Assembly: GCA_002719295.1 (NCBI GenBank)
Contig: PBHC01000009.1
Span: 1 to 64,000, forward strand
DNA: 64,000 bases
Source: Chloroflexota bacterium
GTDB lineage: Bacteria; Chloroflexota; Dehalococcoidia; Lucifugimonadales; Lucifugimonadaceae
Direction of reading: 5' to 3'
Made by a program: the position numbers. Within the stretch, counting starts at the first letter, position 1. Each line of letters starts with the position of its first letter. This document shows positions 48,001 to 57,000 of this stretch, piece after piece.

Positions 48001-51000
48001 TCATTATGGAATTGATTCAAAAGATATTGATAATGCAATTCATTCAATGTCTAAAGTTATGAACTCAATATAGTATTATTCAGACCAGAGCTTTTCAAAT
48101 CTTTCTTTTAGTGTTTTTTCTATGCCTCTATCATTTGGGGAATAAAATTTTCGATTTTGAACTTTTTTGGGGAAGTTATCTTTTTTAATAAATCCTTCTT
48201 TAGAGTTATGATCATATGTATATCCTTTTCCAACACCGAAGTCTTTATCTACAGACGTTTCAGCGTTTATTAAGTGGTTAGGAACATCTGTGATTGGATT
48301 TTTTGATACCTCATCGTACGCATGGTTTATTGCTTGATATGATGAGTTGCTTTTTTCTGATAATGACAAATAAATGGTAGCATTAGCAAGTGGTATTCTT
48401 CCCTCAGGCATACCTATTTTATTTAAAGACTCAAATGTAGAGTTTGCAATTATCATTGCATTAGGATTTGCTAAACCTATATCTTCAGATGCGCTAATTA
48501 TCAATCTTCTAGCAATAAATAATGGATCTTCGCCATTCTTTAACATTCTAGCCAAATAATATATTGCCGCATCAGGATCTGAACCTCTAATTGATTTGAT
48601 AAAAGCAGATATGTTATTGTAATGATTATCACTTTGTTTATCATAAATAGAATTGTTTTCTAAAAGCTCTTTTATAAGTTCTTTGGTAATGGTTTTTTTA
48701 TTCTTTGATTCTTTAGTAGACATTATTGCTAATTCATAGGTATCAATAGCTTTTCTTGCATCACCTCCGCATCCATTAAGTATTGTATTCAATACGTCTT
48801 TATCAAATTTAATATTTTTTTTAGAAAAAGATTCGTCAGAAAAAGCTTCTAATTTTTTAATGATTTTTCCTATAGATGTAGAACTATGAGGTTCAAACTT
48901 AAATATTTTCACTCTTGAAATTAATGGGTTAATAATTGAAAATCCAGGATGCTCTGTTGTTGCTCCAATAAGAATAATTATTCCTTCTTCAATAAGAGGT
49001 AACAACGAGTCTTGTTGATTTTTTGAAAATCTATGAATTTCATCTAAAAATAGAATTGTTTTATTTGAGCTACTAGTTCTTTCATGTAAAATTTCATCTG
49101 TTAATTTTCTTATATCTGATAACCCCGAAGATACAGCCGAAAGTGACTTAAAGTTTAAATTTGTAACATTAGAAATAATTTTCGCTAAAGTTGTTTTTCC
49201 TGTTCCTGGGGGCCCCCAAAAAATCATTGATGGGATTGTTTTATTTTCAATTAGATTTCTTAAGATTTTCCCTTTCCCCAAAATATGCTCTTGCCCTATG
49301 AATTCATCTAAGGAATTTGGTCTAATCCTTGATGATAAAGGAGAATTTGATAAAAGTTCTTTTCTAGCGTTATGTTCAAATAGAGTCATTTTTAAAGAAA
49401 TTATTAAGATTTTCAATTAAATAACTATCATACTCAGAAAAGATTGTCCTTAAATCTAGCATTAGCATTCCATTTTCAATCTTACCTAAAATAGGAGTAC
49501 TTAAATTCAATAAATAATTTTCTAATTTCATAATAAATTTATCTTCGTGCATTACTATAGCGATACTATCTAAAGTTGTCTCGGGAAATGTTCCGCCTCC
49601 AATAGTTGATGATGTGTTCTTCAAAGAAAAATATTTATTTGATAATTGTTTTAATATCTTTTCAGCTCTTATTAGTAATTCTTTTTGTTTTATATCAATG
49701 AGTTCCCACGAAAAGATTTTATTCTTTGAATCTTTAGATATATATTTTTTCAAGATTGAATTTAGTATGAATAAATTTAATTTATCTACTCTAGCAGCTC
49801 TAGCCAAAGGATTTTTATTTATTTTTTCAATATAATTTTTTTTGCCTACAATTATTCCACACTGAGGGCCTCCTAAAAGTTTGTCTCCAGAGAATAAAGT
49901 GATATCTGCCCCTTCATTTACACTTTCAAGAATTGTTGGCTCATAAGGGAGTTCAAAATCGGTTGAATCCAAAAAATTCCCAGAACCAATATCATGAATA
50001 ATTGGTATGTTATATTTTTTACCTAATTTACTTAATTCTTTTATTTCTACTTCACTTGTGAATCCTTCAATTTTATAGTTAGATTTGTGAACTTTTAAAA
50101 TTGCTATTGTTTTTTCAGTAATATTGTTTTCATAGTCTGTTATATATGTTTTATTTGTTGTGCCAATATCTACTATTTTTTGGCCAGACATTTTGATTAT
50201 TTCAGGTATCCTAAATCCTCCTCCTATCTCAATAGATTCTGATCTAGAAACTAATATTTCTTTATTTTTACCAAGAGCACTTAAGCAAACTACAAGGGCC
50301 ATAGCTCCATTATTAAATACTGTGGATGATTCACATCCAGTCAAAAGTTCTAATAATTCTGAGGTTTTACTTGTCCTTGACTGTCTTTTTTTTGTATTTA
50401 TATTTATTTCCAAGTCAGAATAGTTAGAAATAAGATTATATATTTTTTTTGAAATATCTTTTGGTATTGGAGATCTTCCTAAATTGGTGTGCAGAATTAC
50501 TCCTGTACCATTAATGACTATTTTTCCATCATTGGTTAACAAATTTTTAACTCGTGAAAAAATTTGATTTTTCAGATCAGTTATTGAAAGCTTTAATTGA
50601 GGATTATTTTGAATTTTTTTTCTAAACGATTTTAATTCAAAGTTTATAATTTTTTTTAGTATGTCTAACCTTACGTCTAAAGTAGAAAACTCATTAGACT
50701 TAAGTAACTCTGTCATACTAGGAATGTTTTTTAATTCCATAAGAATTTGTTTTAATAAATATTATTACTCTTTTTTTCTATCATAGGAATTGAATGAAAA
50801 GAAGAAAGAGTTTATATTGGTTTAAGCTTTTTATTTAATAGTTACAAAAACTTACAACATTGGAGAAAATAATGGCAACTCAAAGTTACAAAGAAGTTAA
50901 TGCAGAAGAATATATTGTTGAAGAAGAGCCATTCTTCATGCCTACATCAGACGAAATTGAAGTATTTCAAGCTGCTTACAATGAAAGAGTACCAATTCTT

Positions 51001-54000: not shown

Positions 54001-57000
54001 AGTTAGATATCTAATGACATTATCAAAAATTTCTAATGACAAAGTAAAATCTGTTGAAGACTCAATGGCTGTTTCATTTAGATTATTTTCACTTATTAGA
54101 GATATAAAAAATGATGATATTGAATCAGATGAAGCACAAGAAGAAGCAGATGAAATTAAAGATGAAGACTTAGATGATTCAGATGATAAATTTGAAGATG
54201 AAGAAATTGTGAATGATATGATTTCATATTTTTCTGGAGGAGAAGGTGAAGCAGGAGAAGGAGAAGAATCAGAGGAAAGTTCAATTAATCCTCCTGATGA
54301 AGGTGATTATCAATCACCTGATCCTGTTGAATACCAAGGTGATTTTAAGCCTGAATTAGGACAACTTCTTACAGAAATGCTAACTGTGAGCGGTGACGAA
54401 ATGCAGGGAGAAGGAGAAGAGATGGAAGGTTTGACTCAAGAACAAATAGAAGAGTTGATTCAAAATTCTCCAGATTTAGAAACAAAAGAGTCTGATGAAA
54501 ACCAAGAAATGACAGAAACTCCAAATCAAGAATTGTTAGAAAATCTAATGAAAGAACTTAAGAATAGAGATGTGGATAACAATTCCTTTACTGGTGGTGA
54601 ACCTACTCATGTTGATGAAGACGGAGGCCCTTTAGAAGCAAAAGAACCTGATACATTTACTTATGATGAATGGGACTTTAGAGATGTTGAATATAAGCCT
54701 AATTGGTGCTTACTTCATGAAAAAAAACTTCCAGATGGTGAAGCAAACTTTTATAGAGAAACACTTACTAATAATTCAAATCTTGTTCACCAAATTAAGA
54801 AGCAATTTGAATTATTTGTTCCAGAACAATATAGAAAACAAAAACGTCTTGAAGATGGAGAAGAAGCAGATTTAGATGCAGGAATAGAAGCTCTTATAGA
54901 TCTAAGATCTGGAGTAACTCCTGATGAAAAGATTTATTGGAGAAGAAACAAAACGGAAAGATCTGTGGCCGTCGCATTATTAATTGATATGAGTGCATCT
55001 ACAGCTGAAGCAATTGATGATAGTACTAAATCTAGTTCAGATGACTGGGGTGCTCCTGATGATCCTGTGGAGTATATGGTATGGCTTAGATCAAGAAGGG
55101 CAGAAGGACTTAGAAGATCTTATAAAAGAATTGTTGATGTCGAAAAAGAAGGAATAGTATTAATGGTGAACTCCCTAGAAATGCTAGGAGATGATTATGG
55201 TATTTATGGTTTTTCTGGATATGGAAGAGAAAATGTTGAGTTTTATACTATAAAAGATCTTGATGAAAAATTTAATGATTCTATATCTGGAAGAATAGAT
55301 AGAATTGCTCCTTTACACGCTACAAGAATGGGTCCTGCAATAAGACATACTATTACTAAATTAGAAAACCACGAAGCAAGATCTAGGATTCTTTTTCTTG
55401 TAACCGATGGAAGGCCTCAAGATAGAGGTTATTCAAGAGAAGGTGTAGAGAAGGAATATGCAGTATATGATACTAGACAAGCTTTAATTGAAGCAAGACA
55501 AAAAGGAATCACTCCATTTTGTCTTACTGTTGATAAATCAGGACATGATTACCTTAAAACAATGATGGATGATTTACCATATGAAGTTTTATCAGATATT
55601 TCTATGTTGCCTGCTAGACTTCCTGAATTATATCGAAAGATTTCTACTTAAAAAAAGATAGGATTTTGTCAGCCCATTCTTTTTCTATCAGAATAACGTC
55701 TTTTGTTTCTGCTGCTACTGCAAAATAACCAGTATCTTCTTCATTCAAATTACCGATACTTATTGAAGTGTTATAAAGAGTATTTACTCCAAATTGATCC
55801 CTTGAAATAGTTTTTATATCAACATATGGCGCATCTAATCCTAGTCCATATTTTGAATAGTCTTCAGCAAACATCATATTCAACTGTACTGAATTTAATA
55901 TATTTAAATCAGAAAAATCTATTAGAAAATTTAAAATAGGTTCAGGTTCAACTTTTTCATCTCCTAGACAAGGAGAACTTGATAAAGGAATATAACAAGC
56001 AAACCAATCAGTTCCCTTTTTGCTGAAAGCTTTTATAATCTCACCATTATTAATCAATACAACTTCGACTACTTCCTCTGTGTTGATTTTATTCATCCAT
56101 TTTGGATAAGGAGGTTCCTCAACAAGTCTTGTTAAAACATTTTTCCATGTTGCATCAACCATAACTAATTTTTCATCTCCCTCAAGATAAGCATAATTAT
56201 TAGTTAAATCTGGAGTTTCATTTCCTATGAACAATGTTCTTTTATCTCCACTATCAAGAAAAATAGATATTTCTGTTGCAGGATTGTCTAATCCATACTT
56301 AGCCTTATCATCTATATTTTCTGAAATAGTTCTATATAGCTTAGGTCCTTGTAAAAGATCAATAATTCCTCCCCATCTATATGAATCTGCAGGAATTCCA
56401 TTAAGTTGATCAAAATACCAAATATTATCTTGTAGATGCCAACTAAGTTTTTTGGAGTTATTCGTGATTGAAATATTTCTAATATCTCCTGAGGATATTC
56501 TGTAAAAGTATGAAATATCTACTTCTTCTTTTTCTTCTCCAATATCAGATTGAAATATAAGAACACCGAGAACAGAAAACCAGGATAGAAGAATTATTAA
56601 AATTAATGTAATTCTTAGGTTCATTTTATCTTCTTCGCCACCAGCTAATAAAGCCTCCAATTGTAACTAGAGTTGGCATCAAAAGCCAACCACTCCATCT
56701 TATAAAATCTCTTTCACTTTTTGTTAAAACTAATTCTCTATACGCTTGTGTTTTTGGTCTTATTGAAATCAATTCAAAATCTTTAGCAAGCCAGTTAATA
56801 CTATTTATAAAAAGATCACTGTTTTTTGCTGAACCAGAATATTTGTTAGATGCAAAATCCGTGTCTCCAACAACTACTATTGAAGTTTGTGCAATAGTTC
56901 CATCTTCTTTTTCTATTGGAGTTTTACCTAACTCTGAAATAGCTTCTACGGCTAAAATTGTTGGAAATGGTCCTAAAATGTCAGTTTCTACATCATACCT

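What a model noticed while it worked through the whole genome (the two positions that open the first line are those of the whole stretch)
50872..55651. CbbQ/NorQ-type MoxR ATPase, Nudix hydrolase and giant NorD-like VWA protein as one SAR202-specific triad
g00691 (CbbQ/NorQ-type AAA+ ATPase), g00692 (NudL-like Nudix hydrolase) and g00693 (1115-aa protein whose last 330 residues are NorD/CbbO-like with a VWA domain) lie head to tail (3-base gap, then 8-base overlap) in a genome that shows neither Rubisco nor nitric oxide reductase. By analogy with the Rubisco activase CbbQO, which pulls inhibitory sugar phosphates out of the enzyme, I read the triad as an activase that frees an unknown SAR202 enzyme from a tightly bound nucleotide-linked inhibitor, with the built-in Nudix enzyme destroying what is released. 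A MoxR-VWA remodeller with its own inhibitor-degrading hydrolase would be a new kind of enzyme repair system.
Evidence so far: Swiss-Prot: g00691 CbbQ 54% over 269 aa (3e-104), NirQ 57%; g00692 NudL 32% (2.5e-15); g00693 residues 786-1114 NorD 30% (1e-38); Pfam VWA 954-1087; residues 1-785 no family, with an acidic low-complexity stretch. neighbours.tsv: CbbQ_C next to NUDIX in 595 of 773 genomes of the order and in 697 genomes in all, of 17457 that have both families, so about 85% of the cases known to the table are in this order. CbbQ_C is in 91% of the order, 18% of the phylum, 9% of bacteria. No RuBisCO row; the only COX1 row is the aa3 oxidase g00764.
(Added by a program. Inside this text positions count along the whole contig: contig position 1 is position 1 of the stretch shown here. 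"Call 12" and the like, gene names such as g00115 and contig names such as C1 are that model's own, and its searches are not shown. The text may have been shortened before it was handed on; [...] marks where a part breaks off. The agent that wrote the report below was given it as the finding of a first reader that could run no searches.)

Follow-up and report, generated by a model that had tools for sequence, protein, structure and literature searches.

The report
Orphan MoxR-VWA remodeller in CoA operon
Three tightly packed genes encode a CbbQ/NorQ-type ATPase, a CoA-pyrophosphatase-like Nudix enzyme and a giant NorD-like adaptor; the ATPase and adaptor form a widespread protein-remodelling machine of marine Dehalococcoidia whose client is unknown, while the Nudix enzyme belongs with the coenzyme A kinase CoaE rather than to the machine itself.

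Summary
The three genes are real, at the stated coordinates (3-base gap, 8-base overlap). The ATPase is a CbbQ/NorQ MoxR. The 1115-aa protein has NorD's plan: N-terminal domain, linker, VWA with intact MIDAS. It adds a 340-aa alpha-solenoid, a zincin-like HQxxH domain and a D/E-rich linker.

The "triad" is one variant of a wider cluster. In relatives the order is CoaE > cbbQ > [Nudix | YfcE-type phosphodiesterase | cyclophilin | nothing] > giant. CoaE, the genome's only dephospho-CoA kinase, lies directly upstream of cbbQ in 44 of 46 and 74 of 75 loci. The window's genus is the exception.

The Nudix gene sits in the slot in only 19 of 60 evenly sampled loci. It lies elsewhere in 10 of 10 genomes with another or no slot gene. 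It persists in 3 of 5 genomes lacking the machine and is fused to CoaE in 40 protein clusters. Its conserved partner is therefore CoaE, not the remodeller.

Rubisco, NOR/aa3 oxidase, CoxL-type enzymes and CobN are not supported as clients. Six near-complete genomes keep the machine but lack both COX1 and MoCoBD_1.

Verdict: an orphan, class-restricted MoxR-VWA remodeller embedded in a CoA-homeostasis operon. The "built-in inhibitor-destroying Nudix" is not supported, but a CoA-linked client stays open.

The parts
50872..51720 (+). cbbQ/norQ-type MoxR AAA+ ATPase, 282 aa (alternative TTG start at 50860). Walker A GPTGTGKT at aa 46-53 (nt 51007-51030).
   Evidence: Pfam AAA_5 and CbbQ_C. PDB CbbQ 5c3c 5e-100 and NorQ 9qh4 3e-87. 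GGAG 7 nt upstream of the ATG. Walker motifs read from the translation.
51724..52311 (+). Nudix hydrolase, 195 aa, CoA-pyrophosphatase-like. Nudix box core R81-E-T-N-E-E-I-G-A89 (box region nt 51916-51990).
   Evidence: Pfam NUDIX. NCBIfam NF007980 CoA pyrophosphatase at 82.4 bits, cut-off 134. The best solved relatives are CoA diphosphatases. Orthologues are fused to CoaE in relatives.
52304..53323 (+). Giant protein aa 1-340: alpha-helical solenoid with repeated W..G..LA...RSWE..EYF..SP motifs. NorD has no counterpart.
   Evidence: Model mc96422382d8d, pLDDT 87. The best structural rows are designed helical repeats, Z 8-12.6. Repeats are visible in alignment A2.
53336..53980 (+). Giant protein aa 345-559: zincin-like domain with an HQxxH motif (HQxxL in this window) and invariant E494, R497 and (42/45) D499. 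Probably non-catalytic.
   Evidence: Model m2f7ee54d253c, pLDDT 84. The top VIA rows are zincins: BepA Z 6.4, jannalysin 5.8, ZMPSTE24 5.6, YbeY 5.6. Foldseek found nothing at E<=0.001.
53981..54652 (+). Giant protein aa 560-783: D/E-rich linker (31% D+E, 8% K+R), matching in position the NorD linker.
   Evidence: Composition. NorD architecture from PMC13036017, sections read.
54653..55651 (+). Giant protein aa 784-1115 plus stop: NorD/CbbO-type VWA domain with a pre-VWA segment. MIDAS D895-x-S897-x-S899 (nt 54986-55000), T1007, D1035.
   Evidence: NorD 9qhd_G 2.7e-33, aligned over 784-905 and 941-1113. Pfam VWA. MIDAS residues are conserved in 44-45 of 45 homologues.

Best explanation
cbbQ and the 1115-aa gene encode a two-part MoxR-VWA protein remodeller of the NorQD/CbbQO kind.

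By homology, a CbbQ hexamer holds one adaptor by its VWA 'finger'. The intact MIDAS site binds an acidic residue of a client protein. ATP hydrolysis twists and stretches the acidic linker between the VWA domain and the N-terminal module. The client is thereby opened for exchange or insertion of a cofactor.

The N-terminal module (solenoid plus degenerate zincin-like domain) is specific to this lineage and presumably sets client specificity. The client is not Rubisco, NOR or haem-copper oxidase, a CoxL-type molybdoenzyme or CobN. It remains unidentified.

The Nudix gene is the lineage's general CoA-pyrophosphatase-like enzyme. Its conserved functional partner is the dephospho-CoA kinase CoaE, in CoA turnover and recycling. 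It shares an operon with the remodeller because the remodeller genes are interleaved with this CoA pair (CoaE > cbbQ > Nudix > giant). It is not a dedicated subunit.

Shown: gene structure, homology, architecture, distribution, synteny and the CoaE-Nudix fusion.
Inferred: the mechanism, the operon transcription, the Nudix substrate, and any functional tie between the two modules.
For: Homology and motifs. Mechanism of the homologue NorQD: PMC13036017, sections read. PMC9976466 (passages) states that N-terminal domains of MoxR-associated VWA proteins vary and probably confer target specificity.

Pairing: the giant occurs in 133 of 201 class genomes and CbbQ_C also in 133 of 201, with parallel family tallies. 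In a 301-genome phylum sample both occur only in the same 9 genomes, all of the window's class. All of the 80 best loci in species-representative genomes are titled Dehalococcoidia or Chloroflexota MAGs.

Synteny: CoaE lies directly upstream of cbbQ in 44 of 46 and 74 of 75 loci. The controls are much lower: SelA in 4 of 25 and 28 of 71, CinA in 3 of 46 and 25 of 75. Gaps between profile matches have medians of 4-25 nt. That CoaE is the only CoaE match in 5 of 5 genomes. It stays next to cbbQ in 3 of 4 genomes where the giant lies apart.

Slot contents in the 60 class-sample loci:
- Nudix: 19
- YfcE-type phosphodiesterase: 14 (Pfam, NCBIfam)
- cyclophilin: 2
- nothing between cbbQ and the giant: 12
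- cbbQ with a short form of the giant: 1
- giant alone: 12

Nudix independent of the machine: found elsewhere in 10 of 10 genomes and in 3 of 5 genomes lacking the machine. A slot copy (G194) and a copy from a giant-lacking genome of the same family (G036) are sisters at 99/97 support.

CoaE-Nudix link: a CoaE-NUDIX fusion in G018 and in 40 of 120 listed clusters. G036 has CoaE, an acetate-CoA-ligase-alpha-like gene, then Nudix.

Clients tested:
- No RuBisCO_large in G000 or in 5 relatives at least 95% complete.
- No CobN in G000.
- 14 giant-bearing genomes have no COX1 match and 13 have no MoCoBD_1 match. Six genomes at least 93% complete with a full-length giant (G025, G058, G091, G153, G179, G194) lack both.

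RNA: contigs from RNA libraries cover parts of all three genes and bridge both junctions, in 1 study and 3 samples. This is weak, because contigs do not show a single transcript and DNA can be present in such libraries.
Against: No client was found, so the core function rests on homology alone.

The very tight, deeply conserved CoaE-cbbQ adjacency, and a slot filled mostly by phosphohydrolases, could mean that the CoA genes and the remodeller do work together. In one family the slot holds an acyl-CoA-synthetase-alpha-like gene as well as the Nudix gene. My reading leaves this open and does not explain it.

The Nudix tree is poorly resolved: 25 of 33 inner branches are open. Orthology of slot copies and copies elsewhere is therefore supported mainly by similar scores and by the distance to the two other Nudix paralogues of G000.

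The absences of COX1 and MoCoBD_1 come from MAGs 93-100% complete. The Nudix score is below the NCBIfam cut-off, so its substrate is an inference.
Confidence: 0.6

Rival explanations
1. The machine is an activase that pulls a tightly bound nucleotide-linked inhibitor out of an unknown enzyme. The operon's Nudix enzyme destroys the released inhibitor, by analogy with CbbQO plus the XuBP phosphatase CbbY (analogy recalled).
For: Tight packing and overlap of the three genes. Nudix is in the slot in 71 of the 80 closest loci and 19 of 60 class-sample loci. When Nudix is not there, the slot often holds another phosphohydrolase, the YfcE type, in 14 of 60 loci. The Nudix enzyme is of the CoA-diphosphatase type, so a concrete inhibitor class (CoA derivatives) can be named.
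Against: Nudix is absent from the slot in two thirds of the sampled loci yet kept elsewhere in 10 of 10 genomes tested. So the YfcE enzyme does not displace it. It persists without the machine in 3 of 5 genomes, including a sister pair within one family. Its recurrent fusion partner is CoaE, in 40 clusters. No fusion to cbbQ or the giant was seen in 145 loci; the one apparent case is a masked run of X.
Confidence: 0.12
2. The remodeller's client is itself part of CoA metabolism: either CoaE or a CoA-binding enzyme. Under this model CoaE, cbbQ, the slot hydrolase and the giant form one functional unit that loads, exchanges or clears CoA species on a protein.
For: CoaE-cbbQ is the most conserved adjacency (44 of 46 and 74 of 75 loci, far above the SelA and CinA controls). 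It survives separation from the giant in 3 of 4 genomes. Known MoxR-VWA genes usually lie beside their client genes (norQD with norCB: PMC13036017; cbbQO with Rubisco genes: recalled). Other cluster genes are CoA-related: the Nudix CoA diphosphatase type, and an acetate-CoA ligase alpha-like gene in G194. ETF and EtfD-like genes lie next to CoaE in three families.
Against: CoaE is the sole housekeeping copy and also works in lineages without the machine. In the window's own genus CoaE lies on another contig while the machine is kept. Gene order is generally conservative in this class: RarA-SelA also persists.
Confidence: 0.18
3. An ordinary metal-insertion chaperone for the aa3-type oxidase (like NorQD for cNOR) or for CoxL-type molybdoenzymes (like CoxD/E). 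The Nudix gene is a passenger.
For: The C-terminal third of the giant is NorD-like. G000 has one COX1-family gene and two MoCoBD_1 genes. Most giant-bearing genomes have both families.
Against: 14 giant-bearing genomes have no COX1 match and 13 have no MoCoBD_1 match. Six genomes at least 93% complete with a full-length giant lack both, among them G153, a single contig. Many genomes without the giant have COX1 or MoCoBD_1, for example G010, G033, G045 and G070. No such genes lie beside the cluster in the 60 class-sample loci (Pfam scans of only part of their neighbouring genes).
Confidence: 0.05

Closest known systems
NorQ/NorD (cNOR FeB-insertion chaperone; PDB 9qh4, 9qhd; PMC13036017, PMC9976466)
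   Same: A single-module CbbQ/NorQ AAA+ (3e-87 to NorQ). The partner has the plan N-terminal domain, linker, VWA, with MIDAS DxSxS-T-D and a conserved C-terminus (2.7e-33). The genes are adjacent and co-directional.
   Different: No NOR genes. The partner is 1115 aa against 638-646 aa. It adds a 340-aa solenoid, has a zincin-like HQxxH domain and a D/E-rich linker, and carries a 35-aa insertion after the MIDAS DxSxS (residues 906-940 unaligned). It lies in an operon with CoaE and Nudix.
CbbQ/CbbO Rubisco activase (PDB 5c3c, 6l1q)
   Same: The ATPase matches CbbQ best (5e-100). The VWA adaptor logic is the same.
   Different: No Rubisco in G000 or in 5 close relatives. No homology was found to any named family for the N-terminal 785 aa (Pfam and NCBIfam none; 711 unnamed relatives). 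CbbO sequences were not compared directly.
Midasin/Rea1 and the chelatase motors CobS-CobT and BchI-BchD
   Same: AAA_5 modules (midasin 8e-45), combined with a helical region, a D/E-rich stretch and a C-terminal MIDAS domain. The architecture of midasin, CobT and BchD is recalled, not tested.
   Different: Here the motor and the MIDAS protein are separate chains. No CobN was found. The match to CobS is negligible (E 0.003). The nearest named Atlas cluster is CobT at only 0.86, which is a lead, not a match.
CoA diphosphatases of the Nudix family (E. coli NudL model NF007980, NUDT7, AtNUDX11, D. radiodurans 1nqy)
   Same: They are the best family and structure matches. The Nudix core REtnEEiGa is intact. 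Spacing before the core resembles NUDT7 (alignment).
   Different: The score is below the equivalog cut-off: 82 against 134 bits (relatives reach 104-118). The upstream CoA motif is only partly kept (motif recalled). Here the gene is embedded between a MoxR gene and its VWA partner, and in relatives it is fused to CoaE.

Membership tests
MoxR AAA+, CbbQ/NorQ (CGN) subfamily | AAA_5 module followed by the CbbQ_C lid domain | tested here: met
   Pfam AAA_5 at 107 bits and CbbQ_C at 99.7 bits, both above cut-off.
MoxR AAA+, CbbQ/NorQ (CGN) subfamily | Walker A and Walker B motifs, and close similarity to solved CbbQ/NorQ | tested here: met
   GPTGTGKT and a hydrophobic-DE (LDEV) motif read in the translation. 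5c3c 5e-100 and 9qh4 3e-87 over nearly the full length.
MoxR AAA+, CbbQ/NorQ (CGN) subfamily | Genetically paired VWA protein | tested here: met
   cbbQ lies upstream of the giant in 46 of 60 and 75 of 80 loci. The family tallies of the two run in parallel.
NorD/CbbO-type VWA adaptor | C-terminal VWA with MIDAS DxSxS-T-D | tested here: met
   D895, S897, S899 and T1007 in 45 of 45 homologues, D1035 in 44 of 45. Motif definition from PMC13036017.
NorD/CbbO-type VWA adaptor | Sequence homology across the finger/VWA region and the C-terminus | tested here: met
   NorD 9qhd_G at 2.7e-33, covering 784-905 and 941-1113.
NorQD chaperone of cNOR | A cNOR (NorCB) client encoded in the genome, usually adjacent | tested here: not met
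   There is a single COX1-family match in G000, on another contig; I did not subtype it. 14 giant-bearing genomes have no COX1-family match at all.
CbbQO Rubisco activase | A Rubisco large subunit present as client | tested here: not met
   No PF00016 match in G000 (81% complete) or in 5 relatives 95-97% complete.
CobST-type chelatase motor | A CobN/BchH-type large subunit present | tested here: not met
   No PF02514 match in G000 (the genome is 81% complete). CobS model E 0.003.
Nudix CoA pyrophosphatase (NF007980 / NudL type) | Score above the curated equivalog cut-off | tested here: not met
   82.4 bits against a cut-off of 134. It is still by far the best model; the next is MutT at 31 bits.
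Nudix CoA pyrophosphatase (NF007980 / NudL type) | Intact Nudix box catalytic core (REUxEE) | tested here: met
   R81-E82-T-N-E85-E86-I-G-A read in the translation. It aligns with NUDT7 and AtNUDX11.
Nudix CoA pyrophosphatase (NF007980 / NudL type) | Hydrolysis of CoA or acyl-CoA to 3',5'-ADP and 4'-phosphopantetheine | not testable with these tools
   Needs an enzyme assay. The reaction is as listed in PMC5389931 (passage).
Zincin metallopeptidases | HExxH motif with catalytic Glu | tested here: not met
   The second position is Gln in 45 of 45 homologues. The second His is present in 31 of 45 and is Leu in this window.
Zincin metallopeptidases | Zincin fold | tested here: inconclusive
   On the isolated domain the top VIA rows are zincins (BepA Z 6.4, rmsd 3.5, 112 aligned; jannalysin 5.8; ZMPSTE24 5.6; YbeY 5.6). 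All are below Z 8. Foldseek found none at E<=0.001.

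The most novel reading that the evidence does not exclude
The cluster CoaE > CbbQ > CoA-diphosphatase > giant VWA is one system for the repair of CoA-loaded enzymes. The MoxR-VWA machine pries dead-end or damaged CoA species off a client enzyme; examples would be dephospho-CoA, oxidised CoA or CoA persulfide, or non-metabolisable acyl-CoA. 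This would parallel Rubisco activases removing sugar phosphates. The operon's own enzymes then either complete the released nucleotide to CoA (CoaE) or cleave it to phosphopantetheine for resynthesis (Nudix, or a YfcE-type phosphodiesterase in other families). This would be the first AAA+ 'activase' for a CoA-dependent enzyme, found in one of the ocean's most abundant heterotroph lineages.
Probability: 0.15. Interest if true: 0.85.

Novelty: new variant of a known kind. Interest (0 to 1): 0.55.

Why it matters
MoxR-VWA machines are known for very few clients: Rubisco, cNOR, fumarate reductase and chelatases. Here one is kept as a single copy in two thirds of sampled Dehalococcoidia (SAR202-type and relatives). 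That includes streamlined 1.3-Mb genomes, so it is probably important, yet none of the known clients fits.

Its adaptor carries a new specificity module. Its genes are interleaved with the last step of CoA synthesis and a CoA-degrading enzyme. Finding the client would add a new case to the short list of AAA+ enzyme activases or cofactor chaperones. It could also bear on how SAR202 bacteria run their large CoA-dependent catabolism.

Separately, the recurrent CoaE-Nudix fusion points to a coupled CoA synthesis and turnover module. Two targeted searches listed no paper describing it, judged from listings and abstracts only.

Tried and rejected
- Complex prediction of giant aa 1-570 with the genome's CoaE (alignments A2, A4): no verdict, score 0.00 in two runs, controls not run. 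This says nothing either way.
- Foldseek against PDB with both models: nothing at E<=0.001.
- ESM Atlas on aa 1-570: only unnamed clusters at 0.95 (Thermodesulfobacteriota, Nitrospirota, Chloroflexota). The nearest named one is CobT at 0.86. These are leads only.
- The search for related loci with an alignment of the N-terminal part only failed: no conserved stretch, then no tblastn confirmation. The full-length alignment worked.
- Search for longer, fused forms of the window's Nudix: none among 526 candidates, which is weak evidence.
- An apparent Nudix-giant fused ORF in L114 is a run of X from masked or gap bases, not a fusion.
- Neighbourhoods of paralogous and short (about 710-760 aa) giant-like genes show no recurring client. 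They hold a trehalose-synthase-like glycosyltransferase, MFS transporters, Nramp, amidase and aconitase.
- Promoter and terminator scan: fewer promoter-like sites than in shuffles (14 against 24), and one weak terminator-like site inside the giant gene. Uninformative.
- Literature: 'SAR202' with 'CbbQ' gave 1 irrelevant paper. 'Dephospho-CoA kinase' with 'MoxR' gave 2 irrelevant papers. These were search listings only.
- RNA contigs leave parts of the giant gene uncovered. No conclusion is drawn from that.

Full report
**1. Observation.**

The window carries three co-directional ORFs:
- 50860/50872-51720
- 51724-52311
- 52304-55651

The first two are separated by 3 bases. The last two overlap by 8 bases (ATGGATAA), with an AAGGTG Shine-Dalgarno-like motif inside the end of the Nudix gene.

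Gene 1 has AAA_5 and CbbQ_C. It matches solved CbbQ (5c3c, 5e-100) and NorQ (9qh4, 3e-87) over nearly its whole length.

Gene 2 is a Nudix protein. Its only strong NCBIfam model is CoA pyrophosphatase NF007980, at 82 bits against a cut-off of 134. Its best solved relatives are CoA diphosphatases: AtNUDX11, NUDT7 and D. radiodurans 1nqy.

Gene 3 (1115 aa) matches NorD (9qhd_G, 2.7e-33) over residues 784-905 and 941-1113 and has Pfam VWA at 954-1087.

The genome G000 is 1.27 Mb in 20 contigs, 81% complete and about 30% G+C. It has one CbbQ_C gene, no RuBisCO_large and one COX1-family gene on another contig.

**2. Anatomy of the giant protein.**

According to the 2026 NorQD cryo-EM paper (PMC13036017; sections read), NorD consists of:
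- an N-terminal domain (1-241) that docks on the NorQ lid;
- a disordered linker (242-393) that is essential for function;
- a VWA domain whose finger enters the NorQ pore. Its MIDAS (DxSxS-T-D) is thought to bind the client.

The giant has the same plan on a larger scale.

*Solenoid.* An AlphaFold model of residues 1-570, built from 45 homologues, has mean pLDDT 87. Residues 1-340 form an alpha-solenoid. The best structural rows are designed helical repeats at Z 8-12.6, which for helical repeats shows only the class of fold. Repeated W..G..LA..RSWE..EYF..SP motifs are visible in alignment A2.

*Zincin-like domain.* Residues 345-559, modelled alone, reach pLDDT 84. Their top rows in the wide structural search are zincin-type metal hydrolases:
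- BepA: Z 6.4, rmsd 3.5, 112 residues aligned
- jannalysin: Z 5.8
- ZMPSTE24: Z 5.6
- YbeY: Z 5.6
- abylysin: Z 5.5
- BlaR1: Z 5.5
- selecase: Z 5.3

All of these are below Z 8, and Foldseek found nothing. The fold assignment is therefore consistent but not proven.

The sequence has an H-Q-x-x-H motif where zincins have HExxH. Among 45 homologues:
- H424 is present in 43.
- Q425 is present in all 45, never Glu.
- H428 is present in 31. It is Leu in this window.
- E494 and R497 are invariant.

The domain is thus very probably not a peptidase.

*Linker and VWA.* Residues 560-783 are 31% D+E and 8% K+R. The MIDAS residues D895, S897, S899 and T1007 are kept in 45 of 45 homologues, and D1035 in 44 of 45.

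PMC9976466 (passages) notes that the N-terminal domains of MoxR-associated VWA proteins are not conserved and probably give target specificity. By that logic this adaptor has a client of its own.

**3. Distribution.**

The full-length protein has close relatives (44-94% identity) in many clusters. One is named as from a SAR202 cluster bacterium.

The N-terminal 785 residues find 711 representatives at E<=1e-3 among 1.84 billion, mostly about 1000-1100 aa long.

In an even sample of the window's class:
- The giant is found in 133 of 201 genomes.
- CbbQ_C is found in 133 of 201, with parallel family tallies.

In a 301-genome sample of the phylum, the giant's N-terminal part and strong CbbQ_C matches occur in the same nine genomes only. 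All nine belong to the window's class.

Among species-representative genomes, 597 of 601 pattern matches encode a relative. The best 80 are all titled Dehalococcoidia or Chloroflexota MAGs.

**4. The cluster is larger and more variable than a triad.**

I fetched 60 loci from the class sample and 80 from the species representatives. I scanned all six frames with profiles built from the window's proteins and their neighbours. Neighbour families were identified with Pfam and NCBIfam.

The common order is CoaE > cbbQ > X > giant.

CoaE (Pfam PF01121, 145-174 bits) lies directly upstream of cbbQ in 44 of 46 class-sample loci and 74 of 75 of the closest loci. Gaps between the profile matches have medians of 4-25 nt. 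Two unrelated housekeeping neighbours serve as controls and are far less constant:
- SelA: 4 of 25 and 28 of 71
- CinA: 3 of 46 and 25 of 75

The CoaE in the cluster is the only CoaE match in 5 of 5 genomes checked. Where the giant lies apart from cbbQ, CoaE still abuts cbbQ in 3 of 4 genomes.

The window's genus is the exception. In G000, G029 and L094, SelA and RarA lie divergently upstream, and in G000 CoaE is on contig C16.

The slot X in the 60 class-sample loci holds:
- Nudix: 19
- a YfcE-family phosphodiesterase: 14 (Metallophos_2; TIGR00040 above cut-off)
- a cyclophilin: 2
- nothing between cbbQ and the giant: 12
- a short giant next to cbbQ: 1
- the giant alone: 12

In the 80 closest loci, Nudix is in the slot in 71 together with CoaE, and in 3 more without a CoaE call. 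Two loci lack Nudix, and four contigs are too short to judge.

In G194 the slot holds an acetate-CoA-ligase-alpha-like gene plus Nudix.

**5. What the Nudix gene is tied to.**

In 10 of 10 genomes whose slot is filled otherwise or is empty, a Nudix homologue of equal similarity (29-39% identity over nearly the full length) lies elsewhere. So the YfcE enzyme does not replace it.

In 3 of 5 genomes that lack both cbbQ and the giant, the homologue is present:
- In G018 it is fused to CoaE in one 408-aa protein (CoaE 2-180, NUDIX 245-328).
- In G036 the order is CoaE, an acetate-CoA-ligase-alpha-like gene, then Nudix.
- In G054 it lies next to RarA.

A search with the fusion protein lists 40 clusters that carry PF01121 plus PF00293 and cover 99-100% of it, at 36-99% identity.

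In a tree of 34 of these Nudix proteins plus two other Nudix paralogues of G000, most branches are unresolved. However, the slot copy of G194 and the copy of giant-lacking G036, from the same family, are sisters at 99/97 support. The two paralogues sit on very long branches.

No ORF in 145 loci joins Nudix or CoaE to cbbQ or the giant. The one apparent case is a masked run of X.

The conserved functional partner of this Nudix enzyme is therefore CoaE. This fits a CoA-diphosphatase role: CoA is cleaved to 3',5'-ADP and 4'-phosphopantetheine (reaction as listed in PMC5389931). The product can re-enter synthesis through CoaD and CoaE; that recycling loop is recalled biochemistry, not tested here.

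**6. Which client?**

- *Rubisco:* no match in G000 or in five relatives 95-97% complete.
- *CobN:* none in G000.
- *Haem-copper oxidase/NOR family (PF00115):* present in 139 of 201 genomes. But 14 giant-bearing genomes have no match.
- *CoxL-type MoCoBD_1 (PF02738):* present in 148 of 201 genomes. But 13 giant-bearing genomes have no match.

Six genomes at least 93% complete with a full-length giant lack both PF00115 and PF02738: G025, G058, G091, G153 (a single contig), G179 and G194. These lists come from comparing the tables by eye. Genomes not listed as positive fall under the tools' 'no match' tallies.

Conversely, many genomes without the giant have one or both families.

Contexts of paralogues and short forms gave no recurrent neighbour.

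**7. Expression.**

Four metatranscriptome runs from one study (three samples) hold contigs at least 95% identical that cover parts of all three genes. Contigs bridge the cbbQ-Nudix junction (X2 51328-51803; X3 51617-51756) and the Nudix-giant junction (X1 52111-52359).

The tool's own caveats apply. Contigs do not prove a single transcript, and DNA may be present in RNA libraries.

**8. Interpretation.**

The safest reading is an orphan NorQD/CbbQO-type remodeller with a new specificity module. Its genes are interleaved with a CoA-homeostasis pair (CoaE, Nudix).

What remains striking and unexplained:
- the near-invariant CoaE-cbbQ junction;
- the fact that most slot occupants are phosphohydrolases or CoA-related genes.

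I therefore keep a CoA-linked client as a live rival (0.18) and as the most novel reading (0.15 for the full repair-cycle version).

A structure-prediction test of CoaE against the giant's N-terminal module gave no verdict and counts for nothing.

**9. Novelty and score.**

The machine type is known. Three things are new:
- the adaptor's architecture (solenoid, HQxxH zincin-like domain, D/E linker);
- the lack of any known client;
- the association with CoaE and the CoA-type Nudix gene.

I found nothing in print on these points. 'SAR202' with 'CbbQ' returned 1 irrelevant paper. 'Dephospho-CoA kinase' with 'MoxR' returned 2 irrelevant papers. A search on CoA pyrophosphatase, Nudix, dephospho-CoA kinase and fusion returned 17 papers; I saw listings and abstracts only, and none describes the fusion.

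I rate it a new variant of a known kind, interest 0.55.

Noticed in passing
L176:3963-5189 (-) (genome G018); protein clusters P0271-P0310: A CoaE-NUDIX fusion protein of about 385-417 aa (dephospho-CoA kinase plus a CoA-pyrophosphatase-like domain) recurs in 40 protein clusters, one of them named as Dehalococcoidia. It suggests a coupled CoA synthesis and turnover module that I did not find described.
   Followed up: partly
window 48076-50740 (-): RarA/MgsA (48076-49416) and selenocysteine synthase SelA (49376-50740) overlap by 41 nt and lie divergently upstream of cbbQ. The RarA-SelA pair recurs upstream of the cluster in many relatives. SelA in a roughly 1.5-Mb streamlined genome implies selenoprotein use.
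   Followed up: no
L072:3686-5077 (+) (G194) and L174:4553-5968 (-) (G036): An acetate-CoA ligase (ADP-forming) alpha-subunit-like gene (TIGR02717, 383-395 bits, below the cut-off of 567) sits between CoaE or cbbQ and Nudix in one family, both with and without the remodeller genes.
   Followed up: partly
L043, L047, L050 (G022, G069, G190), upstream of CoaE: ETF alpha and beta genes and an EtfD-like membrane Fe-S oxidoreductase (CCG, Fer4 and Nitrate_red_gam domains) lie directly next to CoaE in three families (ETF beta seen in two of them). This is another acyl-CoA-oxidation link in the neighbourhood.
   Followed up: no
window 55644-60099 (-): Downstream on the opposite strand lies a four-gene set: DUF4340, a GldG-like ABC-transporter auxiliary protein (ABC_transp_aux), an ABC-2 permease and an ABC ATPase. 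It is conserved in the same family (G029, G142) but not beyond.
   Followed up: no
window 51720-51789: One metatranscriptome contig (X1, record 1) matches cbbQ up to its stop codon and resumes at 51789, with 70 different letters replacing 68. This is a strain variant in the start of the Nudix gene.
   Followed up: no
genomes G003, G004, G048, G063, G106, G141, G158, G175: Some larger genomes carry 3-5 giant-like paralogues, several without an adjacent cbbQ. Families f16 and f26 have short forms (708-761 aa) that keep only the zincin-like part and the VWA domain. This suggests diversification of the adaptor towards several clients.
   Followed up: partly
L114:1049-4576 (+): A stop-free frame joins Nudix and the giant, but only through a run of masked or gap bases that read as X. 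It would be easy to mistake for a fusion.
   Followed up: yes
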